A stretch of 39,999 bases of DNA. Origin: a virus. A program made the position numbers and the translations under genes. Positions 1,668 through 14,883 of the stretch are shown in pieces. The notes below the pieces were generated by a model. That model had not been told where the DNA came from and did not search any database. It saw nothing but the letters and a program-made list of their open reading frames with translations. The number at the start of each line of letters is the position of its first letter. Within the stretch, counting starts at the first letter, position 1. Location of the stretch: the IMG/VR virus record IMGVR_UViG_3300029952_000065; one strand, 5' to 3'.

Positions 1668-1745
1668 CGGCGCGTGTTGTTTAACGGTTAGCATATCTCC
1701 CTCTTAAGGAGCAAGGTGCAGGTTCGAATCCTGCCGCGCCGACCA
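1668..1745 (+). tRNA. tRNA, anticodon CTT (Lys) candidate
   Basis: Acceptor cggcgcg/cgcgccg, T-arm gcagg-ttcgaat-cctgc and encoded CCA at 1743-1745. Anticodon arm tctcc-ctCTTaa-ggagc. D-arm is imperfect, so the anticodon assignment is moderate. Confidence 0.65.
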
Positions 1746-1943
1746 AAATTTGAGTTTTGTGGTATTGTAGTGTATGGAACTAAAAATTGGACCGTACACA
1801 GCAACGGGGTCACAAGCATGGGTTGAGTTTTGCCGCTTCGTGATCGAGGATTTGCAAGACGGGGAAATTTTTCATTGGCCTCCGTATAGCTCGGTTGGAT
1901 TTGCAGCGAAGTATCCCGAGCACGTCGGTAGACTACAAGCTTT

Positions 1944-2189
1944 ATGAGTATAGACGGAAACGGGCATATCAACGTTGACGATCTCGCGGATGCTTTCGCG
2001 GCGATATTTCGTCACGACATGGAGCCGCCTGAACTGATGATTTGGGCTGATCCACCGGGAAGAGAATCGGGCACTTGGGTGTTCCGCAGGGGTCACGAAC
2101 CCTATCGGATCGCCGATACCTCAGAGTTCGAGCGTATCTGGATGAGCACTATCGGCATCACAGACGTGTCAATCAAAAGGTTTGCGTAA
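1944..2189 (+). CDS. hypothetical protein (between two tRNAs)
   Basis: 81-aa ORF with GC-rich codon usage; no motif. Confidence 0.35.
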   Translation: MSIDGNGHINVDDLADAFAAIFRHDMEPPELMIWADPPGRESGTWVFRRGHEPYRIADTSEFERIWMSTIGITDVSIKRFA

Positions 2190-2195
2190 AAGTTT

Positions 2196-2271
2196 GGATC
2201 GGTAGCTCAATTGGCAGAGCAACAGACTCTTAATCTGAAGGTTGTGGGTTCAATTCCCACCCGGTTCACCA
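2196..2271 (+). tRNA. tRNA-Lys(CTT)
   Basis: Acceptor ggatcgg/ccggttc, D-arm gctc-aattggca-gagc, anticodon loop gaCTCTTAAtc, T-arm gtggg-ttcaatt-cccac and encoded CCA. Confidence 0.85.
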
Positions 2272-6447: not shown

Positions 6448-6933
6448 ATGGAAGAGTTTAAAAAAACAGGTGAGGAACGTGTATTTAAGGGCGGTGCGAG
6501 TAGAGACGCAGCGATAGGGAAAGGGGCACCACACTGGATGCCTTCTATTGCTCTTTTCCTTGTTTCTCGCATTTACGAGAACGGTAACATCCAAAGGGAT
6601 AAACTCAACGGCGGCATCGGCAATGGGGATACTCGTAATTGGGAAAATGGAATGCCAATTAATGAGTTGCTTGGTTCCGCCGAACGCCACATTCAGCGTT
6701 ATCGAGAAGGAGATCGCAATGAACCCCACCTCCCCCAAGCCGCTTGGAATATTCTTAACGCCATAATGATGTCTGTTTGGATTTGGCTTGGTTACAGAGA
6801 TGTTAGTTTCAATAATCTTCCCGATCACATCCACAATTGGAAACCTGGAGATCCTTCACCCTGCCCCTTAAGTCCCCAAGAAATAGAATGGTTGAAAGTA
6901 CGTGGAATAGAAAAAAATAACACAACTCAGTAA
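6448..6933 (+). CDS. possible dATP/dGTP diphosphohydrolase N-terminal-domain-like protein
   Basis: GASRDAAIGKGAPHWMP...NWENG...HLPQAAWNILNAIM resembles, from memory, the phage dGTP/dATP pyrophosphohydrolase N-domain consensus. Confidence 0.45.
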   Translation: MEEFKKTGEERVFKGGASRDAAIGKGAPHWMPSIALFLVSRIYENGNIQRDKLNGGIGNGDTRNWENGMPINELLGSAERHIQRYREGDRNEPHLPQAAWNILNAIMMSVWIWLGYRDVSFNNLPDHIHNWKPGDPSPCPLSPQEIEWLKVRGIEKNNTTQ

Positions 6934-6977: not shown

Positions 6978-9569
6978 ATGCCTAATCTTTTACAAAAACT
7001 TACTTATTTCGACCCAGAAACCAGTAGACAATTTGTCATTGGGGATAAGGGATTCGCCTGGAAACAAGCGGTAAAATCTCCCGAAGACTCAAAAGTAACT
7101 CGTCTGGTAGCTCAATACGGCTGGGAATTGAAGTACGGTACGGATACATTTTTGCTTTTTAAGCGCCCCAAGCAAAAAGGGGAATTAAATGTACTGCGAG
7201 GTACCAAACAATGGTTTTTGGACATGGGCGGGCCGGTTTATGAAGATACCCCCGGGGGAACGGGATTAAAGAGCCTACAGAGGGCTCTAGAGGATAACCA
7301 GATGAATATATCAAAAGCGGCTAACCCCGCTGCTACAGCTGTTAATAACGCCGCAAAAGGCACTCCAGGATTAAATAGACGCCCAGATTACGCAGAAGCT
7401 GATTCCATTGTTGCTTTGGATGGTGGGGTTAAAACAGGAAGTACGGGTTTGCCAGCTACTTTATATGTTACGAGCGCCGATTACAAAGGCATTACTCTAG
7501 AGAAATTTTCTTTTAGCCCAAATATCGAAAAAGCTAGGATATTTCCTCCTCTTATGGCTAAAAGTTTAAGCAATCAAATCAAAGGTAGATTTGGTGTCAC
7601 TTCCCACATCATTTTAGCCTATAATTATGAGGAAATGTTTAAGTCTATACTTGCTTTAAACCCTGAATCCAAGTTTTTGATAGATAAAGAAATTACATGG
7701 GCTAAGCGGAGTCTCAAAAAACAGGATCGAGTTATTTGGTTTTTGCGCTGGATCCGCTTGGCTATCATGCAAGAACTTTATCATGCCGCTGGAGCCGCTG
7801 GATCTGGTAGACCTGCTGAACCAACATCCCCAGGCGAGAAATCCAGAGAACAGATTTATAAAGAGCGAGTAAAGAATGTTCTAGATCAATACAAAAAAGA
7901 CATGTCAGCAAAAGGGGGAAATCCAGATGCTGATAGTATGAGTATAGGAGATTTATCGACTATACATGCAAATTTAGATCACTTTTATGGTTTGAATGTA
8001 CCGGAGATCAATAATTATAGTCCGACAGTAGAAACTTGGACTGATTTACGACAACGATTTTCTAGCATTGAGCAGGCTTGGGCAGAAGCAGCAAAACGAG
8101 GACTTAAACCTAAAACAGAAGATAAAGTTTTTATTAAGTTTCCCGATGGTTGGGCTTGGTGGTTTTTACCTCGCTCTTCCTGTGACCAAGAAGCTAAAGC
8201 CATGGGTCACTGCGGAAATTCCCCTTTCGCCGGTAGAGAAGGTATCGGCATACTCAGTTTACGCAGACCAGTTAAACACGGAAAAGATTTTTTGTGGGAA
8301 CCTCATCTTACATTCATTCTTCATGAAGACCCACCAGGTGCTGACAGTGGAACTTTAGGGGAAATGAAGGGTAAAGGTAATGCAAAACCTACTCCTCAAT
8401 ACCATCCATATATTATGAAATTATTGGAAGATCATAGAATACAAGGCGTTGGCGGCGGTGGATACTTAGCGTCTCACAATTTTTCTTTTTCTGATCTTAC
8501 CCCTGAACAACAAGCCATCGTCAATAAAATTAATCCAGGCGTAGGAATGACCATCGCAGGATATTATAAAGAACATGGAATGGATGGAAAGCTGTTGAAA
8601 AAAATCAAAGCTATTTTGGGTTTAGAAAGTGCTACATACGACCCAAAATACGGAGTAGCGGTTGCCTCTTGGCCTAATGAAGAAGAGTTCATTAAGAAAA
8701 CAGGTGACAGTGAAGCTAAGAAAGCGTGGATGTTTGTTCAGACTGGTGAACACAACTATGACAGCCCGGATATCGATGAACTCACGGACTTGCTTAACGG
8801 AATCAATGATCCGCAAATCCATAATATTGGTTTATCCCTCACTTATGATTTTCCAGTAGAAATGCAATCATGGTATTCAAATTTCAACCCTAATGATAAA
8901 GTTGCGGTGAAATTGGCGCTTACAGATTTATATAATGCTTACATCGCTAAAGGGCAAAAAGTTTTTGACCAGGAAGTTGACAAACTCAAAAAATATTTAA
9001 CTACTCAGGAAAATGAGATGAATGAAACGGGAGGATTCGCAAATCCTGAAGTTATACAAGAGATAAAAGAAAAATTAAAGGGTTACGATCAAAATAAAGT
9101 GTGGGATGCTGTGCCTGTACTACAAAAATTGCATGCTGCATATGTGGCTGGGGGACCAAACCAAGCAGAGGTAAGGGCAAATATTAAAAAGAAAGTCCAA
9201 GAAGGCTTAAAAGATAAAGATAGGATCAAAATCACAACAACCACCGATGGTCGTTATTTGCAACTCATGGATGAAAAGAAACTGGTAAAAGATGCCCAAG
9301 GCCACCAAGACGCTGGAGGCACGGGAGGGTATTACGATACTCCCGAATTTCGCTGGTCATTCCCCTATGATTGGGATGAGTGGAACCCCGAAAGAACAAA
9401 TAAGGCTGTAGCTAAACTTTTTGGCGAACCTTCTAAAAAACCATCAAGGAATGTGAAGCAAAAAAGACTGTTTCCTGAGCCAAAAACTAATGAAGATGCC
9501 GTGCGCAAAGGCATTGCAGTGTCAAGTTTTAGGAATCCCTTATTACAAAAAAGACTCATTTTTGAGTAG
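6978..9569 (+). CDS. large hypothetical protein (863 aa)
   Basis: Longest ORF in the window; no recognisable catalytic motif. Confidence 0.7.
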   Translation: MPNLLQKLTYFDPETSRQFVIGDKGFAWKQAVKSPEDSKVTRLVAQYGWELKYGTDTFLLFKRPKQKGELNVLRGTKQWFLDMGGPVYEDTPGGTGLKSLQRALEDNQMNISKAANPAATAVNNAAKGTPGLNRRPDYAEADSIVALDGGVKTGSTGLPATLYVTSADYKGITLEKFSFSPNIEKARIFPPLMAKSLSNQIKGRFGVTSHIILAYNYEEMFKSILALNPESKFLIDKEITWAKRSLKKQDRVIWFLRWIRLAIMQELYHAAGAAGSGRPAEPTSPGEKSREQIYKERVKNVLDQYKKDMSAKGGNPDADSMSIGDLSTIHANLDHFYGLNVPEINNYSPTVETWTDLRQRFSSIEQAWAEAAKRGLKPKTEDKVFIKFPDGWAWWFLPRSSCDQEAKAMGHCGNSPFAGREGIGILSLRRPVKHGKDFLWEPHLTFILHEDPPGADSGTLGEMKGKGNAKPTPQYHPYIMKLLEDHRIQGVGGGGYLASHNFSFSDLTPEQQAIVNKINPGVGMTIAGYYKEHGMDGKLLKKIKAILGLESATYDPKYGVAVASWPNEEEFIKKTGDSEAKKAWMFVQTGEHNYDSPDIDELTDLLNGINDPQIHNIGLSLTYDFPVEMQSWYSNFNPNDKVAVKLALTDLYNAYIAKGQKVFDQEVDKLKKYLTTQENEMNETGGFANPEVIQEIKEKLKGYDQNKVWDAVPVLQKLHAAYVAGGPNQAEVRANIKKKVQEGLKDKDRIKITTTTDGRYLQLMDEKKLVKDAQGHQDAGGTGGYYDTPEFRWSFPYDWDEWNPERTNKAVAKLFGEPSKKPSRNVKQKRLFPEPKTNEDAVRKGIAVSSFRNPLLQKRLIFE

Positions 9570-9601
9570 ACAAACCCCTGCTTCAACTGTATAATAATAG
9601 C

Positions 9602-10372
9602 ATGAGTAGTTTACTCGAAATAGCTATTGAGCTGGCGCTGAAAGCACACCATGGGCAAATAGACTCGGATGGTGACCCTCACATTCTTCACAGCTTAGAG
9701 GTCATGTTTGCTGTAAAAAAAGAACTGGAATGTGCCCCCAATGAAACTCCAGATTGTTGCCTTCCCGTTTTATATGGAGCTACAAAAGAGCAACTTTTAG
9801 TAGCGGCTGTACTTCACGATGTGGTTGAAGACACTGATTTTTCTCTTGATCAGGTTCGTAAAGAATTCGGAGATGTGGTTGCAGATATCGTAGATTCCGT
9901 TACCCGACGTGAATCCGATGGAATAAAAGAATTTTATCGTGATTTTATTTATCGAGCCCGCGCGTCGAAAGGCGGAAGACTAGTTAAAATCGCAGACCTC
10001 CTCACAAATCTTAAACGCCTTCCAAATATTAAAATCGCTCACCCAAAATGGCATGACAAACTTCAATATAAATATCACTTAGCAAAACGGGTGTTGCAGA
10101 CTGAAGATGATGCTGCTTACAAGGTGGGTCAGTATACGCAGTTCGGAGGCTACGTGGTGCAGACTGAAGATGATGCTGCTTACAAGGTGGGCCAGCAGTT
10201 CGGAGGCTACGAAAAAGTGCGGCAGGTAAAGCTTTGGGAGAAGCTTTCTGGGGAGATTAGGGGTTATGACCCAAAGCAGTATTTTATTGCTGATCCCGAT
10301 GGTAAACGCAAAGAAATTTCATCTGCTGAGTTTACATTCTTATTTCCTACCAAGCTACCCGAACCGAACTAG
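9602..10372 (+). CDS. HD-domain (p)ppGpp hydrolase-like protein (SpoT/Mesh1-like small alarmone hydrolase)
   Basis: HHGQIDSDGDPHILHSLEV and VLHDVVEDT match the RelA/SpoT HD signatures (HxxQxRxxGxPYxxH and LHDvxEDT). Contains an internal 63-nt tandem duplication. Confidence 0.8.
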   Translation: MSSLLEIAIELALKAHHGQIDSDGDPHILHSLEVMFAVKKELECAPNETPDCCLPVLYGATKEQLLVAAVLHDVVEDTDFSLDQVRKEFGDVVADIVDSVTRRESDGIKEFYRDFIYRARASKGGRLVKIADLLTNLKRLPNIKIAHPKWHDKLQYKYHLAKRVLQTEDDAAYKVGQYTQFGGYVVQTEDDAAYKVGQQFGGYEKVRQVKLWEKLSGEIRGYDPKQYFIADPDGKRKEISSAEFTFLFPTKLPEPN

Positions 10373-10440
10373 CAGCTTGTGACCTAGAAAAGTATTATTC
10401 TTTTATGGTAAACTCAGCATCTAAGATTTGAGGAACAAAA

Positions 10441-11952
10441 ATGTCGATGACTGACAAGGAAATCGCTGTTGTCAATAATGCGCGTGAAAAGATTACGGAG
10501 CAGCAAAATCTTTTAAAACGCCTCACCGCCGCCGCTTATCATGTGGGAGTCGTTACCGCTGTTTTGGATAAATCGGTGATTGTAGTTACGGCAAATCAAG
10601 TTTTTGAGTTAGATCAAGTTGAAAGTTCTATCCCAGTAAAAGTAGGAATGTCAGTAGACGTTCATCCCGAAACGGGACAAATTGTTCGGGTAAGCGACTA
10701 CACTACTTACGGGGTATCTGGAACTGTCGTCCAAATAGACGATAAAACAATCCAACTTAATACCCCATCTGGTATATTGGCTACTGATTACGCTACCGTC
10801 CCCGTGGAAATTGGGGATCATGTGATCATGGACAGTACAAACCATGTCATCATCAAAAAAATAAATCAGACTTCTAAATTTGCCTTTAAAACGAATGCAG
10901 TTTTAACCTGGGATGATATTGGCGCATGCGAAGATGCTAAAAAGGCAATTATTGCAGCGCTGGAAACTCCTTATGTTAAAAAAGATATTTTTAAGTATTT
11001 CCACAAAAAAGAAGTTAAAGGGGCTCTTTTGTGGGGTCGCGCAGGGAACGGTAAAACGCTCATCGGAAGAGCGGCCGCAGGTTCCTTGGCTCGTATGCAC
11101 AGCAAAGAATCAGTGGAATCCGGATTTGTTTACATTAAAGGGCCGGAGATTTTAGATAAATATGTAGGTGAGTCAGAAAGTCAAATTCGTTTGGCATTTG
11201 ATTTTTGTAAACGCCACTACAAAAAATACGGGTACCCTGCTATTTTATTCATTGATGAAGCAGATGCTATTTTAATGCGCCGGGGAAGCCGCACATCCGC
11301 TGGCATGGAGCAAACCATTGTTCCCCAATTTCTCTCTGAAATGGATGGAATTGAAGATAGCGGGACTTTTGTGCTTTTGGCAACCAATCGGGCTGATACG
11401 CTGGATCCCGCTGTAATTCGTCCTGGGCGTATAGATCGACCAGTTTATGTAGCGCCCCCAACGAAGGAAAATGCGCCATCCATTTGGAATATTCATATGC
11501 GGAATGTTCCTTTATCCAAGGGGGTCAGCTCTGAGGAATTGATTAAAACTACCAATGAAAGACTTTTTAGCGAACAATATCCATTGTATAAATTGGAAAC
11601 AACTATAGGAACTAGGGTTTTCAGTTTAGGTAGTCTGGTCAGTGGAGCGCTCATCGCTGGTATTGTAGAGCGAGCTTCGGCGGTTGCTATTGATCGTAAT
11701 AATGACGCTAAAAATATTGATGGGTTGTGTCAAAAAGATTTCGACATTGCTTTAACAGCTATGCATAAAGAGCAGTATGGTATGAATCACATGGATGAGC
11801 TACGAGAGTTCGTTGAGAATCAAAAATTGCAAGTAACAGCTATGGAGCAGTACCATAACGGGGTGAAGATCGATGTTCGTTCTCCATCTTCACCTACGGC
11901 ACAACTGGTAGCTGTTCCAATTCCAAGTTCAAAACAGAGGTATGATTCCTAA
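10441..11952 (+). CDS. AAA+ ATPase (classic clade, CDC48/FtsH/proteasomal-ATPase-like)
   Basis: Walker A GRAGNGKT, Walker B ILFIDEADAI, second region of homology MEQTIVPQFLSEMDG...ATNRADTLDPAVIRPGRIDR; SD gagga upstream. Confidence 0.85.
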   Translation: MSMTDKEIAVVNNAREKITEQQNLLKRLTAAAYHVGVVTAVLDKSVIVVTANQVFELDQVESSIPVKVGMSVDVHPETGQIVRVSDYTTYGVSGTVVQIDDKTIQLNTPSGILATDYATVPVEIGDHVIMDSTNHVIIKKINQTSKFAFKTNAVLTWDDIGACEDAKKAIIAALETPYVKKDIFKYFHKKEVKGALLWGRAGNGKTLIGRAAAGSLARMHSKESVESGFVYIKGPEILDKYVGESESQIRLAFDFCKRHYKKYGYPAILFIDEADAILMRRGSRTSAGMEQTIVPQFLSEMDGIEDSGTFVLLATNRADTLDPAVIRPGRIDRPVYVAPPTKENAPSIWNIHMRNVPLSKGVSSEELIKTTNERLFSEQYPLYKLETTIGTRVFSLGSLVSGALIAGIVERASAVAIDRNNDAKNIDGLCQKDFDIALTAMHKEQYGMNHMDELREFVENQKLQVTAMEQYHNGVKIDVRSPSSPTAQLVAVPIPSSKQRYDS

Positions 11953-12162
11953 ATGTCTCAAGTACAAAAAGAAAGACCACAAGAAAAGAAACCTCGCCCT
12001 CAAGAAAATCATGGTCCAACTCTCGATGCAAATATTGACATAGGGGATGCGGATGATATTTTGAAGGAGCTTGAAGAAATTGAACACCCGAACCAGAATA
12101 TACCAGAATATTTTAGAGCACCCTGTTGTGTAGCAATAGCTAAAAAGAAATCGGTTCGCTAA
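11953..12162 (+). CDS. hypothetical small acidic protein
   Basis: 69 aa, directly follows the AAA gene. Confidence 0.4.
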   Translation: MSQVQKERPQEKKPRPQENHGPTLDANIDIGDADDILKELEEIEHPNQNIPEYFRAPCCVAIAKKKSVR

Positions 12163-12470
12163 TGCAGGAAAAGAAAACAAAACCGGCAATTCCTGTAAAG
12201 AAAGGAAAAGGTATTTCTCCGATCAATATCCATCTTGACCCTGTAGGCGACATTGTGGGTGAATTGTATGAGATCTCAAATCCCCGTCAGCGATTCGAAA
12301 TTCAGTACACTGAAATTGATATACGTTCCACAAGGGGTGTTTGCCCCAACACTGGGCAGTACACCGATTTATCATTTAGCGCTGAAAAACCTCGTATTCA
12401 AGCTTGTAGAGTGGGTTGTTCTTGCCACGCCTGTCTTTACAATAATTGTATCGGACACATAGAGCCATGA
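12162..12470 (+). CDS. hypothetical Cys-rich protein
   Basis: 102 aa with C-terminal CRVGCSCHACLYNNC. Confidence 0.4.
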   Translation: MQEKKTKPAIPVKKGKGISPINIHLDPVGDIVGELYEISNPRQRFEIQYTEIDIRSTRGVCPNTGQYTDLSFSAEKPRIQACRVGCSCHACLYNNCIGHIEP

Positions 12471-12781
12471 ATTTATCCGCTTTATTCCAACTGGTATACC
12501 TTAGCATCCCGTGTGGTGCTCTGAGTGCATTGATCACCCAAGGGGCGATATTTAACCCTCTACATGCTGCGTTACGTTTACGTAGCCCTTGGCTGGACGA
12601 ATTGCTTTCCTGCCCATGGTGTACAAGTCAGTGGATTGCGGCTATTTTGGTGTGTATTTATCACCCAATCGTGATCTCTTGTTGGGCTCCAATTGACTAT
12701 TTTGTATCAATTTTAGTGATGGCTGCACTTGCGTCTGTCACCGTTAAGCTGGTATACTCAATATACAAGTCTATGGACTAA
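12467..12781 (+). CDS. small membrane protein
   Basis: ATGA overlap with upstream; 2-3 TM helices (MNLSALFQLVYLS...). Confidence 0.45.
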   Translation: MNLSALFQLVYLSIPCGALSALITQGAIFNPLHAALRLRSPWLDELLSCPWCTSQWIAAILVCIYHPIVISCWAPIDYFVSILVMAALASVTVKLVYSIYKSMD

Positions 12782-12786
12782 TAATT

Positions 12787-14883
12787 ATGGGTCTTCAAGA
12801 ATACACCACAGCGCTAAACGCGAAACTAGAAAAAGCACGGGACGCTTATTACAAGAAGGGCGAACCCGTGATGTCCGATGCTGAATATGACGCTCAGGAA
12901 AAAGAGTTGGCGGATATAATATCGGCTAATCCTCAATTGAAGGTGTTCGCCCCTGTACTCCATACAGTGGGTTCCGATGTAACGGCCTCTGGAAGAGTGA
13001 AGCACAGCCGTCCCATGCTCAGCATTGAGAACAAATACACTGTTGATGACTTTGTGGAATGGGCTAAGAAAATATGGGCAGGATATCCCGACGCCAAATT
13101 CTGCTTAGAGCCAAAATTTGATGGTGTGAGCGTAGAATTAAGGTATAGGCATGGAAAATTGCATCAAGCCGTTTCCCGCGGTACGGGCAGTGAAGGAGAA
13201 GATTGCACTTTACAGGTAATGGCGATCAAATCCATTCCAAAAACAGTACCTAATAGTTTTCCAAATGTGTTTGACATTCGGGGAGAAATGGTCATGCGGA
13301 ATGACACCCTTGAACGTCTCAACGCTGAGGCCCAAAAATATGGGGGTAAAATTTATCAGTCCACCCGTAATCTAACAGCGGGTACCATGAAAAAGCAAGA
13401 CGCTAAAATTGTAGCTAGTCGTGACCTTGAATATAGACCTTGGGAAGTGACAGGTTCAGATTTAAATGATAGTGGGTTTGCCCGCTTGGATATGCTTGTT
13501 GATGCGGGGTTTGTCGCTCCCTTGGGAGAACTGGTAGAAGATGAAGCTTCACTACGAGCTGTTTTAGCGAAGAAACTTAAGGAGCGCACAACTAAACTTC
13601 GTGATATTCTTTCCTTGGAAACTGATGGCGTAGTCATTAAAGTAGATTCGAATGCTTTACGCACACAGTTAGGAGTTGCTTCTAAATATACCAACTGGCA
13701 AACCTGCTTCAAACCCCAATCTGCCTCTGGTACTACGTATCTACGCAGCATCGAATGGCAGGTAGGACGAACAGGAAAATTGTCTCCTGTTGCGGAATGT
13801 GACCCCGTGATACTGGCTTCCGCGAAGGTCGAACACGCCAGTCTTAACAACATCTCCTGGATTAAAGAAAAAGGTTTGAAACTGGGGGCAAAGGTAGAAA
13901 TGCTGCGATCCGGGGATGTGATCCCTCAAATCGTTCGTGTGATTGACGAAGGGGATGATGAAATCATTCCACCAACAAAATGTCCGGAATGCGCTGGAAA
14001 AGTTGTGGAGATGGATGAGGGCGGAGTAGGCATCATTCAACATTTTTGTACCAATCAAGCATGCCCCGGTATTCTACGGGGGTATTTGGCTTTTATTGGT
14101 AGTAGGGATGTACTAGAAATCGATGGGTTGGGTCCAGAAGCAGCAAGAACACTAGTGAAAGAGGAAGGGATCCATGATCTGGCTGGGCTTTTTAATTTTT
14201 ATAATAGATGCCAAGATAAAAGACTCTCCATGGATACAAATAAAGAATTTATCGCCTATGCTCGAATGATAGGATTTGATGCCACTCTTCCCAAAATGTT
14301 GGATTCCTTAGAGAAGGCTAAAACCGCTCCTTGGGAGCGTTGGATCAAAGCTTTGGGGATTCCTATGATTGGGGAAACTCATGGTAAAGCTTTGGTGACA
14401 TTTTTTAAGCTCACCCCAGAGAGCTTCAAAGATTTATGGCAAATTACCCAAAACTTGGAAGAGAACAAAATTGAGGGTATAGGGCCGCAGAAAATAAAAG
14501 CTTTATCTGAATGGGGGGCGAACCCTGACAACAAAGTTTTGTGTTTGTCATTATTCAATTTAGGTGTGCGTCCTACTCCTCCGGAAACGCCTAAAATAGT
14601 AGCTGGGGCACCTCTAAGTGGTATTATTTTCTGCATTACAGGGGAGTTTGACGAAGATAGAAACTCTCTTATCAAGAAACTTGTTAGCTTAGGGGCCGAA
14701 TCTAAAACTGGTGTAACCAAAAAAATAAATCTTTTGATCGTTGGTGATGACGCGGGAAAAACTAAGTTGACTAAAGCCGCAGAATTAGGTATAAAACAAG
14801 TAGGGAAAGATTGGCTCGTTAAAACTTTGTCCGATAGCGGCATTAAAATGTCGCAAAATAACTTTGTTCCAGAGCAGGCGTAA
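12787..14883 (+). CDS. ligA: NAD-dependent DNA ligase
   Basis: Adenylation motif LEPKFDGVSVELRY (KxDG), four-Cys zinc finger CPECAGK...CTNQACPG, HhH region and C-terminal BRCT-like segment. Confidence 0.9.
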   Translation: MGLQEYTTALNAKLEKARDAYYKKGEPVMSDAEYDAQEKELADIISANPQLKVFAPVLHTVGSDVTASGRVKHSRPMLSIENKYTVDDFVEWAKKIWAGYPDAKFCLEPKFDGVSVELRYRHGKLHQAVSRGTGSEGEDCTLQVMAIKSIPKTVPNSFPNVFDIRGEMVMRNDTLERLNAEAQKYGGKIYQSTRNLTAGTMKKQDAKIVASRDLEYRPWEVTGSDLNDSGFARLDMLVDAGFVAPLGELVEDEASLRAVLAKKLKERTTKLRDILSLETDGVVIKVDSNALRTQLGVASKYTNWQTCFKPQSASGTTYLRSIEWQVGRTGKLSPVAECDPVILASAKVEHASLNNISWIKEKGLKLGAKVEMLRSGDVIPQIVRVIDEGDDEIIPPTKCPECAGKVVEMDEGGVGIIQHFCTNQACPGILRGYLAFIGSRDVLEIDGLGPEAARTLVKEEGIHDLAGLFNFYNRCQDKRLSMDTNKEFIAYARMIGFDATLPKMLDSLEKAKTAPWERWIKALGIPMIGETHGKALVTFFKLTPESFKDLWQITQNLEENKIEGIGPQKIKALSEWGANPDNKVLCLSLFNLGVRPTPPETPKIVAGAPLSGIIFCITGEFDEDRNSLIKKLVSLGAESKTGVTKKINLLIVGDDAGKTKLTKAAELGIKQVGKDWLVKTLSDSGIKMSQNNFVPEQA

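What the first reader, a model, noticed from the sequence alone, without database searches (positions are those of the whole stretch)
9602..11952. SpoT/Mesh1-like HD hydrolase coupled to a classic AAA+ ATPase
The HD protein has both RelA/SpoT hydrolase signatures (HHGQIDSDGDPHILH and LHDVVEDT) but no synthetase domain, so it is a small alarmone hydrolase type. It is followed by a CDC48/FtsH-clade AAA+ ATPase with a ~150-aa N-domain. A phage-borne (p)ppGpp or (p)ppApp hydrolase could counter host stringent or alarmone-based defenses. The pairing with an unfoldase-type ATPase is not a described system.
Basis: partly seen in the sequence, partly recalled or inferred. Interest (0 to 1): 0.7.

Follow-up and report, generated by a model that had tools for sequence, protein, structure and literature searches.

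The report
Phage alarmone hydrolase beside Mpa-like unfoldase cassette
The two genes are real, but they look like independent neighbours: an ordinary phage (p)ppApp-type alarmone hydrolase, and a proteasome-ATPase-like unfoldase whose consistent partners are small Pup-like cysteine-ended proteins and a membrane protein, a combination I could not find described.

Summary
Both ORFs exist as described: HD 9602-10372 and AAA+ 10441-11952.

**HD protein.** It is a single-domain RelA/SpoT-type hydrolase. Its nearest relative by sequence and fold is Aph1, the (p)ppApp-specific hydrolase (PDB 7SMG, TM 0.88), not Mesh1 or SpoT. It keeps 5 of Aph1's 6 specificity residues. Phage-encoded hydrolases of this type are already known and have been shown to neutralise toxSAS toxins.

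**ATPase.** It is not CDC48- or FtsH-like in architecture. [quoted passage not shown]

**The pairing.** HD-AAA adjacency occurs only inside one collinear clade of huge phages. It is absent from 80 of 80 more distant phage loci and broken in two relatives.

**What travels with the ATPase.** In 38 of 90 sequences scanned, across 30-70% ATPase identity, the ATPase is followed by a translationally coupled cassette:
- a 58-118 aa protein with a Pup-like basic N-terminus, an acidic helix, and a CxC motif in place of Pup's GGQ;
- a DUF1360 membrane protein with a CPxC motif.

The downstream cassette is the interesting part.

The parts
9602..10372 (+). Aph1-like small alarmone hydrolase (HD_4), 256 aa; predicted (p)ppApp 3'-pyrophosphohydrolase
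   Evidence: Pfam HD_4 6.9e-9 and phrog_990 3.7e-32. Best PDB sequence hit is 7smg, a (p)ppApp hydrolase: 5.8e-13 alone, 6.8e-20 with a profile. Foldseek on the model gives 7smg TM 0.88 and rmsd 2.3 A, against Mesh1 at 0.62-0.66. H30, H72, D73, E76, D77, D132 and N136 are invariant in 20 homologs.
10091..10210 (+). Imperfect 63-bp tandem duplication inside the HD gene (aa 164-184 and 185-203), in a disordered linker
   Evidence: Read directly from the sequence. It is absent from the 92%-identical 235-aa variant P0122 / L178. pLDDT is below 50 over aa 172-205. TRF did not report it.
10232..10342 (+). Conserved C-terminal beta mini-domain of the HD protein (aa 211-247, motif FIADPxGKxIEI), absent from Aph1
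   Evidence: Conserved in the phage clade. Modelled at pLDDT of about 90 with three strands and a helix. Function unknown.
10441..11952 (+). Mpa/ARC-type AAA+ unfoldase, 503 aa
   Evidence: NCBIfam TIGR03689 (proteasome ATPase) 5.8e-73 over aa 6-446, below the equivalog cut-off. AlphaFold model has pLDDT 80.6. The top 30 Foldseek PDB hits are all Mtb Mpa over 470-500 columns, E 4e-34 to 5e-27. Walker A G199RAGNGKT, Walker B ILFIDE268-273, pore loop K240-Y-V-G, R327/R330.
10453..10527 (+). N-terminal helix of the ATPase (aa 5-29), the position of the Mpa coiled-coil arm
   Evidence: DSSP on the model; aligned to Mpa in the full-length fold matches. Coiled-coil pairing itself was not tested.
10540..10863 (+). 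Two beta-rich sub-domains (aa 34-84 and 90-141) at the position of the Mpa double-OB ring
   Evidence: Model secondary structure; fold match to Mpa; TIGR03689 alignment covers this region.
11863..11949 (+). Disordered C-terminal tail of the ATPase ending ...SSKQRYDS; no GQYL/HbYX motif
   Evidence: pLDDT below 50 over aa 475-503. Tails of relatives end in YDA, FDA or KDAN.
11953..12162 (+). 69-aa Pup-like small protein: basic N-terminus (ERPQEKKPRPQ), acidic helix (IDIGDADDILKELEEIE), C-terminal Cys pair (PCC; CGC[W/F/G] in relatives)
   Evidence: Starts at the base after the ATPase stop codon. The family was found between the ATPase and DUF1360 in at least 35 of 38 loci. It has no Pfam match. 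hhalign against 43 authentic Pups gives P of about 5e-5 on the Mpa-binding helix, with 0/150 column shuffles as good. In the reciprocal test 17/75 members beat all 200 of their own shuffles. There are 38 representatives in 1.84 billion proteins, all ending in a Cys motif and none in GGQ/E.
12162..12470 (+). 102-aa paralogue-like protein: basic N-terminus, acidic helix (DIVGELYEI), Cys knot C-x3-C-x-C-x2-C-x4-C-x-G-H
   Evidence: Its start overlaps the upstream stop. The same plan is seen in L001, L003, L004, L009, L010, L011, L172 and L174. The L174 version is hit weakly by the small-protein HMM (0.0029). It is truncated to 33 aa in one sample (L177).
12467..12781 (+). DUF1360 membrane protein (104 aa) with a CPWC motif at the start of a hydrophobic segment
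   Evidence: Pfam DUF1360 4e-6. It lies directly downstream of the ATPase in 38 of 90 sequences scanned, across 30-70% ATPase identity. CxxC is present in 38/38 and CPxC in 35/38.

Best explanation
The interval holds two separate functional units that are neighbours in the early or nucleotide-metabolism region of a huge phage.

Unit 1 (9602-10372) is a stand-alone metal-dependent HD hydrolase of the Aph1 branch of the RelA/SpoT family. It most likely removes the 3'-pyrophosphate from (p)ppApp. Possibly it also acts on other 3'-pyrophosphorylated adenosines, such as toxSAS-modified tRNA CCA ends. Either activity would protect infection from host or competitor (p)ppApp synthetase or toxSAS toxins. 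The fold and residues are shown here; the substrate and role are inferred.

Unit 2 (10441-12781) is a translationally coupled cassette with three kinds of component: an Mpa/ARC-type hexameric unfoldase; one or two small Pup-like proteins; and a DUF1360 membrane protein.

Inferred mechanism for unit 2:
1. The acidic amphipathic helix of the small protein docks on the N-terminal helical arm of the ATPase, as Pup does on Mpa.
2. Its basic, Gly-rich N-terminus enters the pore.
3. Its C-terminal CxC motif replaces Pup's ligase-dependent GGQ/E and couples it to a partner. The most obvious partner is the CPxC of the co-encoded membrane protein, through a shared metal ion or a disulfide.

The result would be a ligase-independent, membrane-linked targeting or anchoring device for the unfoldase.
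For: Unit 1:
- Family and fold.
- Aph1 signature residues D24, R96, R119, K133 and Y134 are conserved as D21, R118, R139, K157 and Y158.
- Catalytic H/HD/ED/D/N residues are invariant.
- Phage SAHs neutralise toxSAS (PMC7229694), and some SAHs reverse tRNA pyrophosphorylation (bioRxiv 10.1101/2021.04.30.441581).
- Aph1 itself is prophage-encoded (PMC10083569).

Independence of the two units:
- HD is adjacent to the ATPase only in the window's clade.
- 0/80 IMG/VR loci have HD adjacent to the ATPase.
- L173 has the HD without the cassette, and L174 has three genes in between.
- L006 and L007 have the cassette without the HD.
- Junction lengths differ between the HD-AAA boundary and the boundaries inside the cassette.

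Unit 2:
- Full-length Mpa match by profile and fold, with an intact motor.
- DUF1360 lies downstream in 38/90 sequences scanned, and a CxC small ORF lies between in nearly all of these.
- The small family resembles Pup in order, size and helix.
- The nearest cellular ATPases are Mpa/ARC of Pup-bearing phyla: 47/80 have a canonical Pup nearby and none has DUF1360 or a CxC protein, apart from one probable phage contig.
Against: - No enzymatic or binding data exist.
- The Aph1 D116 position is not conserved (K138), and the protein has an extra C-terminal domain, so specificity could differ.
- Pfam's Pup model does not detect the small proteins, and the exhaustive profile search did not reach true Pups.
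- The hhalign similarity covers only 17 columns of an acidic amphipathic helix, and a reversed-sequence control scored 18.7 against 25.6. Convergence or composition may explain part of it.
- The ATPase helix (25 aa) is shorter than Mpa's coiled coil.
- The Cys-Cys or metal link to DUF1360 is pure inference.
- 52 of the 90 sequences scanned with related ATPases show no DUF1360 within the flank.
- No protease partner was found, and the ATPase lacks GQYL/HbYX.
Confidence: 0.6

Rival explanations
1. One reading: the HD hydrolase and the AAA+ ATPase are a dedicated two-gene anti-defence system in which the unfoldase assists or regulates the hydrolase.
For: They are adjacent on the same strand in the window and in seven related contigs, down to 42% HD and 50% ATPase identity.
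Against: In that clade the whole block from UPF0114 to the NAD ligase is collinear, so the adjacency is no more conserved than that of any neighbouring genes. It is absent in 80/80 IMG/VR loci and in L006-L008. L173 keeps the HD but lacks the ATPase cassette, and L174 has three genes between them. Intergenic gaps are 29-288 nt, against 0 to -4 nt within the ATPase cassette.
Confidence: 0.07
2. The HD protein is a promiscuous or (p)ppGpp-directed SAH (PaSpo/PbcSpo/Mesh1-like) that dampens the host stringent response, rather than a (p)ppApp-specific enzyme.
For: It matches RelA/SpoT hydrolase domains and Mesh1 at 1e-9 to 1e-10. One Aph1 signature position (D116) is not kept. Tested phage SAHs are broad in their rescue spectrum (PMC7229694).
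Against: The guanine-contacting arginines of Rel (TtRel R43/R44) are replaced by D21/S22, as in Aph1 D24/K25. D24R together with R119A is what gave Aph1 detectable ppGpp hydrolysis, and both D and R are conserved here. The fold is much closer to Aph1 than to Mesh1 or PaSAH.
Confidence: 0.2
3. The ATPase cassette is real, but the small Cys-ended proteins are not Pup-like adaptors. They could be zinc-binding regulators, substrates or assembly factors. In that case the ATPase works as a membrane-protein extractase, or as a chaperone for the DUF1360 protein or for virion or compartment assembly, without coiled-coil docking.
For: No Pfam Pup hit. True Pups are not reached by the family profile. The reversed control is fairly high. 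A second sub-type carries the CGCG motif internally, followed by an acidic domain (L053-L074), which fits a Pup-like tag less well.
Against: Consistent size, order of segments and position next to an Mpa-type ATPase. The profile-profile and reciprocal tests are above shuffles, always on the Pup helix that binds Mpa. N-termini such as M-STQEQIKRRPxKGGGGGG parallel Pup's MAQEQTKRGGGGG.
Confidence: 0.3
4. The phage ATPase docks on a protease ring (a host 20S, ClpP or HslV, or a phage-encoded peptidase elsewhere in the genome) and degrades host proteins, i.e. it is a true proteasome-type activator.
For: Nearest relatives are proteasomal ATPases. It has a long, flexible, conserved C-terminal tail ending in [YF]-D-[AS] in the closest relatives.
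Against: No GQYL/HbYX with a penultimate Tyr (motif definition from PMC8755798). No proteasome, PafA, Dop or peptidase gene was found among the 34 window ORFs scanned. The host is unknown.
Confidence: 0.15

Closest known systems
Aph1, adenosine 3'-pyrophosphohydrolase 1 of Bacteroides caccae (PDB 7SMG; PMC10083569)
   Same: Single HD domain. Best sequence and fold match. Shares D24, R96, R119, K133 and Y134 equivalents and all catalytic residues. Also encoded on a phage (a prophage).
   Different: D116 equivalent is K138. Has a roughly 20-residue insertion after the first helix pair and a roughly 90-residue C-terminal extension (disordered linker plus beta mini-domain). No adjacent (p)ppApp synthetase toxin was found. 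Activity untested.
Phage small alarmone hydrolases PaSpo (Salmonella phage SSU5) and PbcSpo (PVP-SE1) (PMC7229694)
   Same: Stand-alone phage-encoded RSH hydrolase domain. The same proposed role, countering toxSAS and alarmone-based abortive infection.
   Different: Different SAH subfamily. The window protein carries the Aph1 rather than the (p)ppGpp-type base-recognition residues.
Mesh1 / SpoT hydrolase domain
   Same: Same HD_4 fold and the same HD and ED catalytic motifs.
   Different: Lower fold similarity (TM 0.62-0.66, rmsd about 5 A). The guanine-contacting Arg pair is replaced by Asp-Ser.
Mpa/ARC, the actinobacterial proteasome-associated ATPase (PDB 5KZF, 7PX9; PMC8755798)
   Same: Full-length architecture: N-terminal helix, two OB-like barrels, one AAA module with a K-Ar-Hb-G pore loop, and a C-terminal insertion. 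Nearest cellular relatives.
   Different: 24-26% identity. TIGR03689 score 246 against a cut-off of 505. Shorter N-terminal helix. No GQYL tail. No 20S, PafA, Dop or canonical Pup nearby. Instead it is linked to DUF1360 and CxC proteins, and it is phage-encoded.
Pup (and UBact), prokaryotic ubiquitin-like protein
   Same: 60-85 aa. Basic, Gly-rich N-terminus. Central acidic amphipathic helix of the D-x-L-L-D-E-I-D type. Encoded next to an Mpa-type ATPase.
   Different: No GGQ/GGE end and no FVxxYVQKGG ligase-binding segment; it ends in CxC instead. Not detected by Pfam Pup. No ligase or depupylase. Homology not established.
CDC48/p97 and FtsH
   Same: Classical-clade AAA module. High-scoring local matches to the D2 domains of VAT, CDC48 and p97, and to the FtsH AAA module.
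   Different: One AAA module, not two. No double-psi-barrel N domain. No transmembrane segments or HEXXH protease domain. Matches cover only aa 120-372.

Membership tests
RelA/SpoT-homologue hydrolase domain, small alarmone hydrolase (SAH) | HD_4 domain above the Pfam gathering score, with no synthetase (RelA_SpoT) domain | tested here: met
   HD_4 scores 36.1 bits against a cut-off of 27.2. Only HD_4 and HD were found in the 256 aa.
RelA/SpoT-homologue hydrolase domain, small alarmone hydrolase (SAH) | Metal-binding and catalytic residues (H...HD...ED...D...N) | tested here: met
   H30, H72, D73, E76, D77, D132 and N136 are invariant in 20 homologs and align with Aph1 H33, H53, D54, E57, D58, D110 and N114.
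Aph1 family of (p)ppApp hydrolases | Six-residue signature D24, R96, D116, R119, K133, Y134 (PMC10083569) | tested here: inconclusive
   Five of six are kept (D21, R118, R139, K157, Y158). The D116 position is K138, and G/N/S in relatives. The two residues shown to set specificity (D24, R119) are both kept.
Aph1 family of (p)ppApp hydrolases | Compact fold closest to Aph1 | tested here: met
   Foldseek 7smg: TM 0.88 (normalised to Aph1), rmsd 2.3 A, ranks 1-4. Mesh1, PaSAH and RelH score 0.56-0.66.
Aph1 family of (p)ppApp hydrolases | Hydrolyses (p)ppApp and not (p)ppGpp | not testable with these tools
   Needs an enzyme assay.
(p)ppGpp hydrolases of the Rel/SpoT/Mesh1 type | Arg pair contacting the guanine base (TtRel R43/R44; motif GQxRxxG) | tested here: not met
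   The sequence is GQIDSDG (D21, S22), and D is conserved in 17 of 20 homologs.
Mpa/ARC proteasomal ATPase | N-terminal helix, then two OB domains, then one AAA module | tested here: met
   Model elements H5-29, strands 34-84 and 90-141, then the AAA module. The top 30 PDB fold hits are Mpa over 470-500 columns. TIGR03689 aligns aa 6-446.
Mpa/ARC proteasomal ATPase | Functional motor: Walker A/B, Ar-Hb-Gly pore loop, arginine fingers | tested here: met
   GRAGNGKT199-206, ILFIDE268-273, KYVG240-243, RPGRID327-332, all invariant in 29 homologs.
Mpa/ARC proteasomal ATPase | NCBIfam TIGR03689 equivalog cut-off | tested here: not met
   246.3 bits against a cut-off of 504.75.
Mpa/ARC proteasomal ATPase | C-terminal GQYL/HbYX motif with a penultimate Tyr for 20S docking | tested here: not met
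   It ends ...KQRYDS. Relatives end in YDA, FDA, KDAN, VGV or SVQ.
Mpa/ARC proteasomal ATPase | Genomic association with Pup, PafA/Dop and 20S subunits | tested here: not met
   None among 34 window ORFs. Cellular relatives have a canonical Pup in 47/80 loci; phage loci have DUF1360 and CxC proteins instead.
Pup (prokaryotic ubiquitin-like protein) | C-terminal GGQ/GGE preceded by the FVxxYVQK ligase-binding segment | tested here: not met
   All 75 distinct family members end in Cys motifs.
Pup (prokaryotic ubiquitin-like protein) | Detected by the Pfam Pup model | tested here: not met
   No Pfam hit for 12 members, even at E up to 10.
Pup (prokaryotic ubiquitin-like protein) | Disordered N-terminal threader followed by the Mpa-binding acidic helix | tested here: inconclusive
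   hhalign against 43 Pups gives P of about 5e-5 on that helix; 0/150 column shuffles reach it; the reversed control scores 18.7 against 25.6. Family HMM against Mtb Pup scores 20.4 bits, against at most 15.5 in 2000 shuffles. In the reciprocal test 17/75 beat all of their own shuffles.
CDC48/p97 | Tandem D1-D2 AAA modules with a double-psi-barrel N domain | tested here: not met
   There is a single AAA module. CDC48 and VAT matches cover only aa 120-372, each of their two modules aligning to the same query region.
FtsH | Transmembrane N-terminus and a C-terminal M41 zinc protease | tested here: not met
   The FtsH model matches only its AAA part, 149-363 of 598. No peptidase domain in Pfam.

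The most novel reading that the evidence does not exclude
Huge phages may encode a ligase-independent version of Pup targeting. In this reading, a genetically encoded Pup-like protein uses its acidic helix and N-terminal threader to engage a phage Mpa-type unfoldase. Its terminal CxC motif, in place of the GGQ/E isopeptide chemistry, couples it through a shared metal ion or a disulfide to the CPxC of a co-encoded DUF1360 membrane protein. That would either anchor the unfoldase at the membrane or feed that membrane protein, or proteins bound to it, into the motor.
Probability: 0.25. Interest if true: 0.85.

Novelty: new variant of a known kind. Interest (0 to 1): 0.55.

Why it matters
**HD gene.** It adds one more phage alarmone hydrolase, but one with a testable specificity call: Aph1-type, so (p)ppApp rather than (p)ppGpp. 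It sits in a genome region rich in tRNA and RNA-repair genes. That fits the idea that large phages carry countermeasures against toxSAS and (p)ppApp toxins.

**ATPase cassette.** This is the larger point. Mpa/ARC ATPases and Pup are regarded as parts of a cellular proteasome pathway that depends on a ligase. Here an Mpa-type motor recurs in many uncultured phages with no ligase, no 20S and no canonical Pup. It is always accompanied by Pup-like proteins ending in cysteines and by a CPxC membrane protein. If the proposed docking is real, substrate recruitment by Mpa-type coiled coils can be rewired to a non-covalent or thiol-based tag. It would also give DUF1360 and a previously unnamed small-protein family their first functional context.

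Tried and rejected
- **DNA search, phages.** The search of 9000-13000 against deposited phages found nothing.
- **DUF1360 by tblastn.** tblastn against deposited phages found nothing, although the local HMM finds DUF1360 in LR756500.1.
- **Brevundimonas phage Polewnik.** Its annotated 'proteasome-associated ATPase' looked like a cultured example. It has a different N-terminal region and no CxC or DUF1360 neighbours, so it was rejected.
- **Pfam Pup model.** No hit on 12 small proteins.
- **Exhaustive profile search of the small family.** It reached no canonical Pup.
- **First hhalign shuffle control.** It crashed and timed out and was redone on a cleaned alignment.
- **Tandem Repeats Finder.** It did not report the 63-bp duplication in the HD gene. 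The duplication is visible in the sequence and in the alignment.
- **Promoter and terminator scan.** Counts were no higher than in shuffles: 18 against 16.7 promoter-like sites and 4 against 7.9 terminator-like sites. The 11/12 match at 9567-9595 is therefore not used as evidence.
- **PADLOC.** Only generic AAA matches, IetA and TRIP13.
- **BFVD.** No viral structure with the Mpa-like N-region; best TM normalised to the query is at most 0.47, on giant-virus AAA proteins.
- **Literature searches.** Searches for phage Mpa/Pup-like systems and for DUF1360 returned nothing relevant. This covers the held library only.
- **CDC48, FtsH and PAN as family assignments.** Considered and rejected; see the membership tests.


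Full report
**Setting.**
- The window is a one-strand gene array at about 44% GC carrying 19 tRNA genes.
- It has no DNA-level match among deposited phages.
- Its proteins recur on metagenomic contigs of 100-500 kb with the same gene order. It is therefore part of a huge uncultured phage that is present in many samples.

**The observation.**
- Both ORFs are there. ORF 9602-10372 encodes 256 aa containing the quoted HHGQIDSDGDPHILH and LHDVVEDT. ORF 10441-11952 encodes 503 aa.
- Pfam finds HD_4 and HD in the first ORF, with no synthetase domain. It finds a single AAA module at aa 196-337 in the second.
- Gene callers in four other samples made the same calls.

**The HD protein.**
- It matches phrog_990, 'metal-dependent phosphohydrolase', at 3.7e-32, and 49 deposited phages encode relatives.
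- Against solved structures, the best hit by sequence is 7SMG, the (p)ppApp hydrolase Aph1: 5.8e-13 for the single sequence and 6.8e-20 with a five-sequence profile. That is ahead of Mesh1 and the Rel/SpoT hydrolase domains.
- An AlphaFold model built on 20 homologs (pLDDT 83) matches Aph1 with TM 0.88 and rmsd 2.3 A. Mesh1, PaSAH and RelH reach only 0.56-0.66.
- The Aph1 paper defines six residues typical of (p)ppApp hydrolases: D24, R96, D116, R119, K133 and Y134. It shows that D24R plus R119A lets Aph1 hydrolyse ppGpp (PMC10083569).
- Using the HMMER alignments, these residues correspond to D21, R118, K138, R139, K157 and Y158. Five of six are kept, including both specificity residues.
- The catalytic residues H30, H72, D73, E76, D77, D132 and N136 are invariant in the family.
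- The protein differs from Aph1 in two ways. It has a disordered linker containing a 63-bp tandem duplication that is polymorphic between samples. It also has a conserved C-terminal beta mini-domain of unknown role.
The better reference is Aph1, not Mesh1 or SpoT, and the predicted substrate is (p)ppApp.
- Phage SAHs and their ability to neutralise toxSAS toxins are established (PMC7229694). Some SAHs also reverse tRNA-CCA pyrophosphorylation (bioRxiv 10.1101/2021.04.30.441581). This part is a new member of a known kind.

**The ATPase.**
- Local matches to CDC48, VAT and FtsH cover only the AAA core.
- The NCBIfam model for the actinobacterial proteasome ATPase (TIGR03689) aligns from residue 6 to 446 at 5.8e-73, though at 246 bits it is far below the 505-bit equivalog cut-off.
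- The AlphaFold model (29 homologs, pLDDT 80.6) has a helix at aa 5-29, two beta-rich sub-domains at 34-84 and 90-141, the AAA module, and a disordered tail at 475-503.
- Its 30 best PDB matches are all Mtb Mpa chains aligned over 470-500 columns, E 4e-34 to 5e-27. Eukaryotic Rpt subunits follow.
- Walker A, Walker B, the K-Y-V-G pore loop and the arginine fingers are intact and invariant.
- The defining Mpa features are taken from PMC8755798. Against that list, the helix, double OB, AAA module and pore loop are met. The GQYL tail is not: the protein ends in ...KQRYDS.
- No 20S, PafA, Dop or canonical Pup gene was found among 34 window ORFs.
- No catalogued viral structure shows this architecture.

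**Is the HD-ATPase pair a system?**
- Loci whose ATPase is at least 50% identical (L001, L003, L004, L005, L009), and the HD-anchored L172, have the HD gene directly upstream. But the entire block is collinear in these phages: UPF0114, dGTP_diPhyd_N, a 700-1000 aa protein, HD, ATPase, small ORFs, DUF1360, then NAD ligase.
- In phages whose ATPase is 40-45% identical, the HD is not there (L006-L008).
- I fetched 80 further phage loci from IMG/VR with the ATPase alignment and scanned everything with local HMMs. None has an HD gene next to the ATPase. Three have one 5-9 kb away.
- Starting from HD relatives instead, L174 has three genes between the HD and the ATPase. L173 keeps the backbone and the HD but has no ATPase, small protein or DUF1360.
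- HD-to-ATPase gaps are 29-288 nt. The ATPase stop abuts or overlaps the next start, with gaps of 0, -1 or -4 nt.
- Taken together, these results point to two independent units that happen to be neighbours in one lineage.

**What travels with the ATPase.**
- The same scan found a DUF1360 gene within 1.5 kb downstream, on the same strand, in 38 of 90 sequences (89 fetched loci plus the window). That is 29 of the 80 IMG/VR loci, spanning 30-70% ATPase identity.
- Between the two genes there is almost always a small ORF of 58-118 aa with a constant plan:
  - a Lys/Arg- and often Gly-rich N-terminus;
  - an acidic amphipathic helix of the type D-x-[IL]-L-x-x-[LI]-D;
  - a CxC motif at or near the C-terminus (CGCW, CGCF, CGCG, CKC, CEC, CCCC; PCC in the window).
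- The window and its relatives carry a second, related protein (12162-12470) with the same N-terminal plan and a larger Cys knot.
- All 38 DUF1360 proteins keep a CxxC, and 35 of them a CPxC, at the edge of a hydrophobic segment.
- The small family has no Pfam match.
- It has only 38 representatives at E of 1e-3 or better among 1.84 billion proteins. All of them end in cysteines.

**Resemblance to Pup.**
- The nearest cellular ATPases are Mpa/ARC from Actinomycetota, Nitrospirota, Verrucomicrobiota and Poribacteria, at 30-35% identity.
  - 47 of 80 such loci contain a canonical Pup ending in GGQ or GGE.
  - None contains DUF1360, a CxC protein or the HD. The one exception is a 513-kb contig binned into a MAG that has the phage-type cassette.
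- I harvested 43 authentic Pups from those loci. The Mtb sequence I had recalled was confirmed against PDB 7PX9.
- hhalign of the phage small-protein alignment against them gives probability 63-68% and P of about 5e-5.
  - The match covers 17 columns that coincide with the Pup helix that binds the Mpa coiled coil.
  - None of 150 column-shuffled controls exceeds 14.7, against 25.6 for the real alignment. The reversed alignment reaches 18.7.
- The small-family HMM scores Mtb Pup at 20.4 bits, against at most 15.5 for 2000 shuffles.
- In the reciprocal direction, 17 of 75 distinct small proteins beat all 200 of their own shuffles, where about 0.4 would be expected. 31 are in the top 5%.
- Some N-termini (M-STQEQIKRRPxKGGGGGG) parallel Pup's MAQEQTKRGGGGG.
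- The family lacks Pup's ligase-binding FVxxYVQKGG(Q/E) end.
- I therefore describe these proteins as Pup-like in layout and context. Homology is not established, and they are not members of the Pup family.

**Mechanism.**
- Shown here:
  - the family and fold assignments;
  - intact active sites;
  - the conserved gene linkage ATPase, CxC protein, DUF1360;
  - translational coupling within that cassette;
  - independence from the HD gene.
- Inferred:
  - The HD enzyme hydrolyses (p)ppApp, and perhaps 3'-pyrophosphorylated tRNA ends, to protect infection.
  - The small protein docks by its helix on the ATPase arm and threads its N-terminus into the pore, as Pup does.
  - Its cysteines link it to the CPxC of the membrane protein through a metal ion or a disulfide.
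- The last step has no direct support beyond the co-conservation of the two Cys motifs.

**Verdict.**
The hydrolase type is right. The ATPase class is imprecise. The proposed two-gene system is not supported.
- The hydrolase is ordinary. The Mpa-like, Pup-like, DUF1360 cassette is, as far as the searched literature shows, undescribed. It is a new variant of a known kind of machinery.

Noticed in passing
window 30351-32831: An 826-aa ORF matching the major vault protein shoulder domain (3.6e-26) and a vault repeat (1.8e-8). A vault-protein-like gene in a phage is unusual.
   Followed up: no
window 1668-2271, 24955-26779, 35670-38101: 19 tRNA genes in three clusters, including four tRNA-Ser and four tRNA-Arg isoacceptors. 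One call has an odd two-base anticodon (37614-37684). Nearby are a Thg1-like tRNA-His guanylyltransferase (39-725) and an RlaP RNA-repair nucleotidyltransferase (33108-33941). This suggests heavy investment in tRNA supply and repair, which fits an SAH that could clean tRNA 3' ends.
   Followed up: partly
window 6448-6933: ORF with the N-terminal domain of dATP/dGTP diphosphohydrolase (PF18909, 6.2e-9), conserved in the same block in all relatives. No check was made for PurZ or other modified-base genes.
   Followed up: no
window 6978-9569: An 863-aa protein with no Pfam or PHROG match, directly upstream of the HD gene and conserved in relatives at 668-1018 aa. Orthologues in L003 and L174 hit PF17338 (GP88).
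   Followed up: no
window 10091-10210: A 63-bp imperfect tandem duplication inside the HD gene, present in the window, L175, L176 and L177 (256 aa) and absent in L178 and P0122 (235 aa). It is a length polymorphism in a disordered linker.
   Followed up: yes
L177 4722-4823 (equivalent to window 12162-12470): In one sample the 102-aa Cys-knot ORF is called as only 33 aa, a possible natural disruption of that gene while the rest of the cassette is intact.
   Followed up: no
L003 8310-9203, L009 8403-9260, L006 10011-11540, L007 10935-12464, L012, L039, L041, L042, L065, L067 and L068: A second, divergent AAA-type ATPase (about 290 aa or about 509 aa) often lies 0-4 kb downstream of the DUF1360 gene. 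It is absent from the window itself.
   Followed up: no
L090 (CAYOCJ010000002.1, a 513-kb contig in a 'Gammaproteobacteria' MAG): It carries the phage-type cassette: the ATPase at 38% identity, a small ORF ending CFCFR, and DUF1360. It is probably a huge-phage contig binned into a bacterial MAG.
   Followed up: partly
L053, L057, L059, L065-L068, L073, L074, L171: A second sub-type of the small protein (88-118 aa) has the GCGCGG motif in the middle, followed by an acidic C-terminal domain rather than at the C-terminus.
   Followed up: no
window 17487-22114: A 643-aa protein with a C-terminal OmpA domain, followed by ABC-transporter permease-like and ATPase genes. These are unusual envelope-related cargo for a phage.
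   Followed up: no
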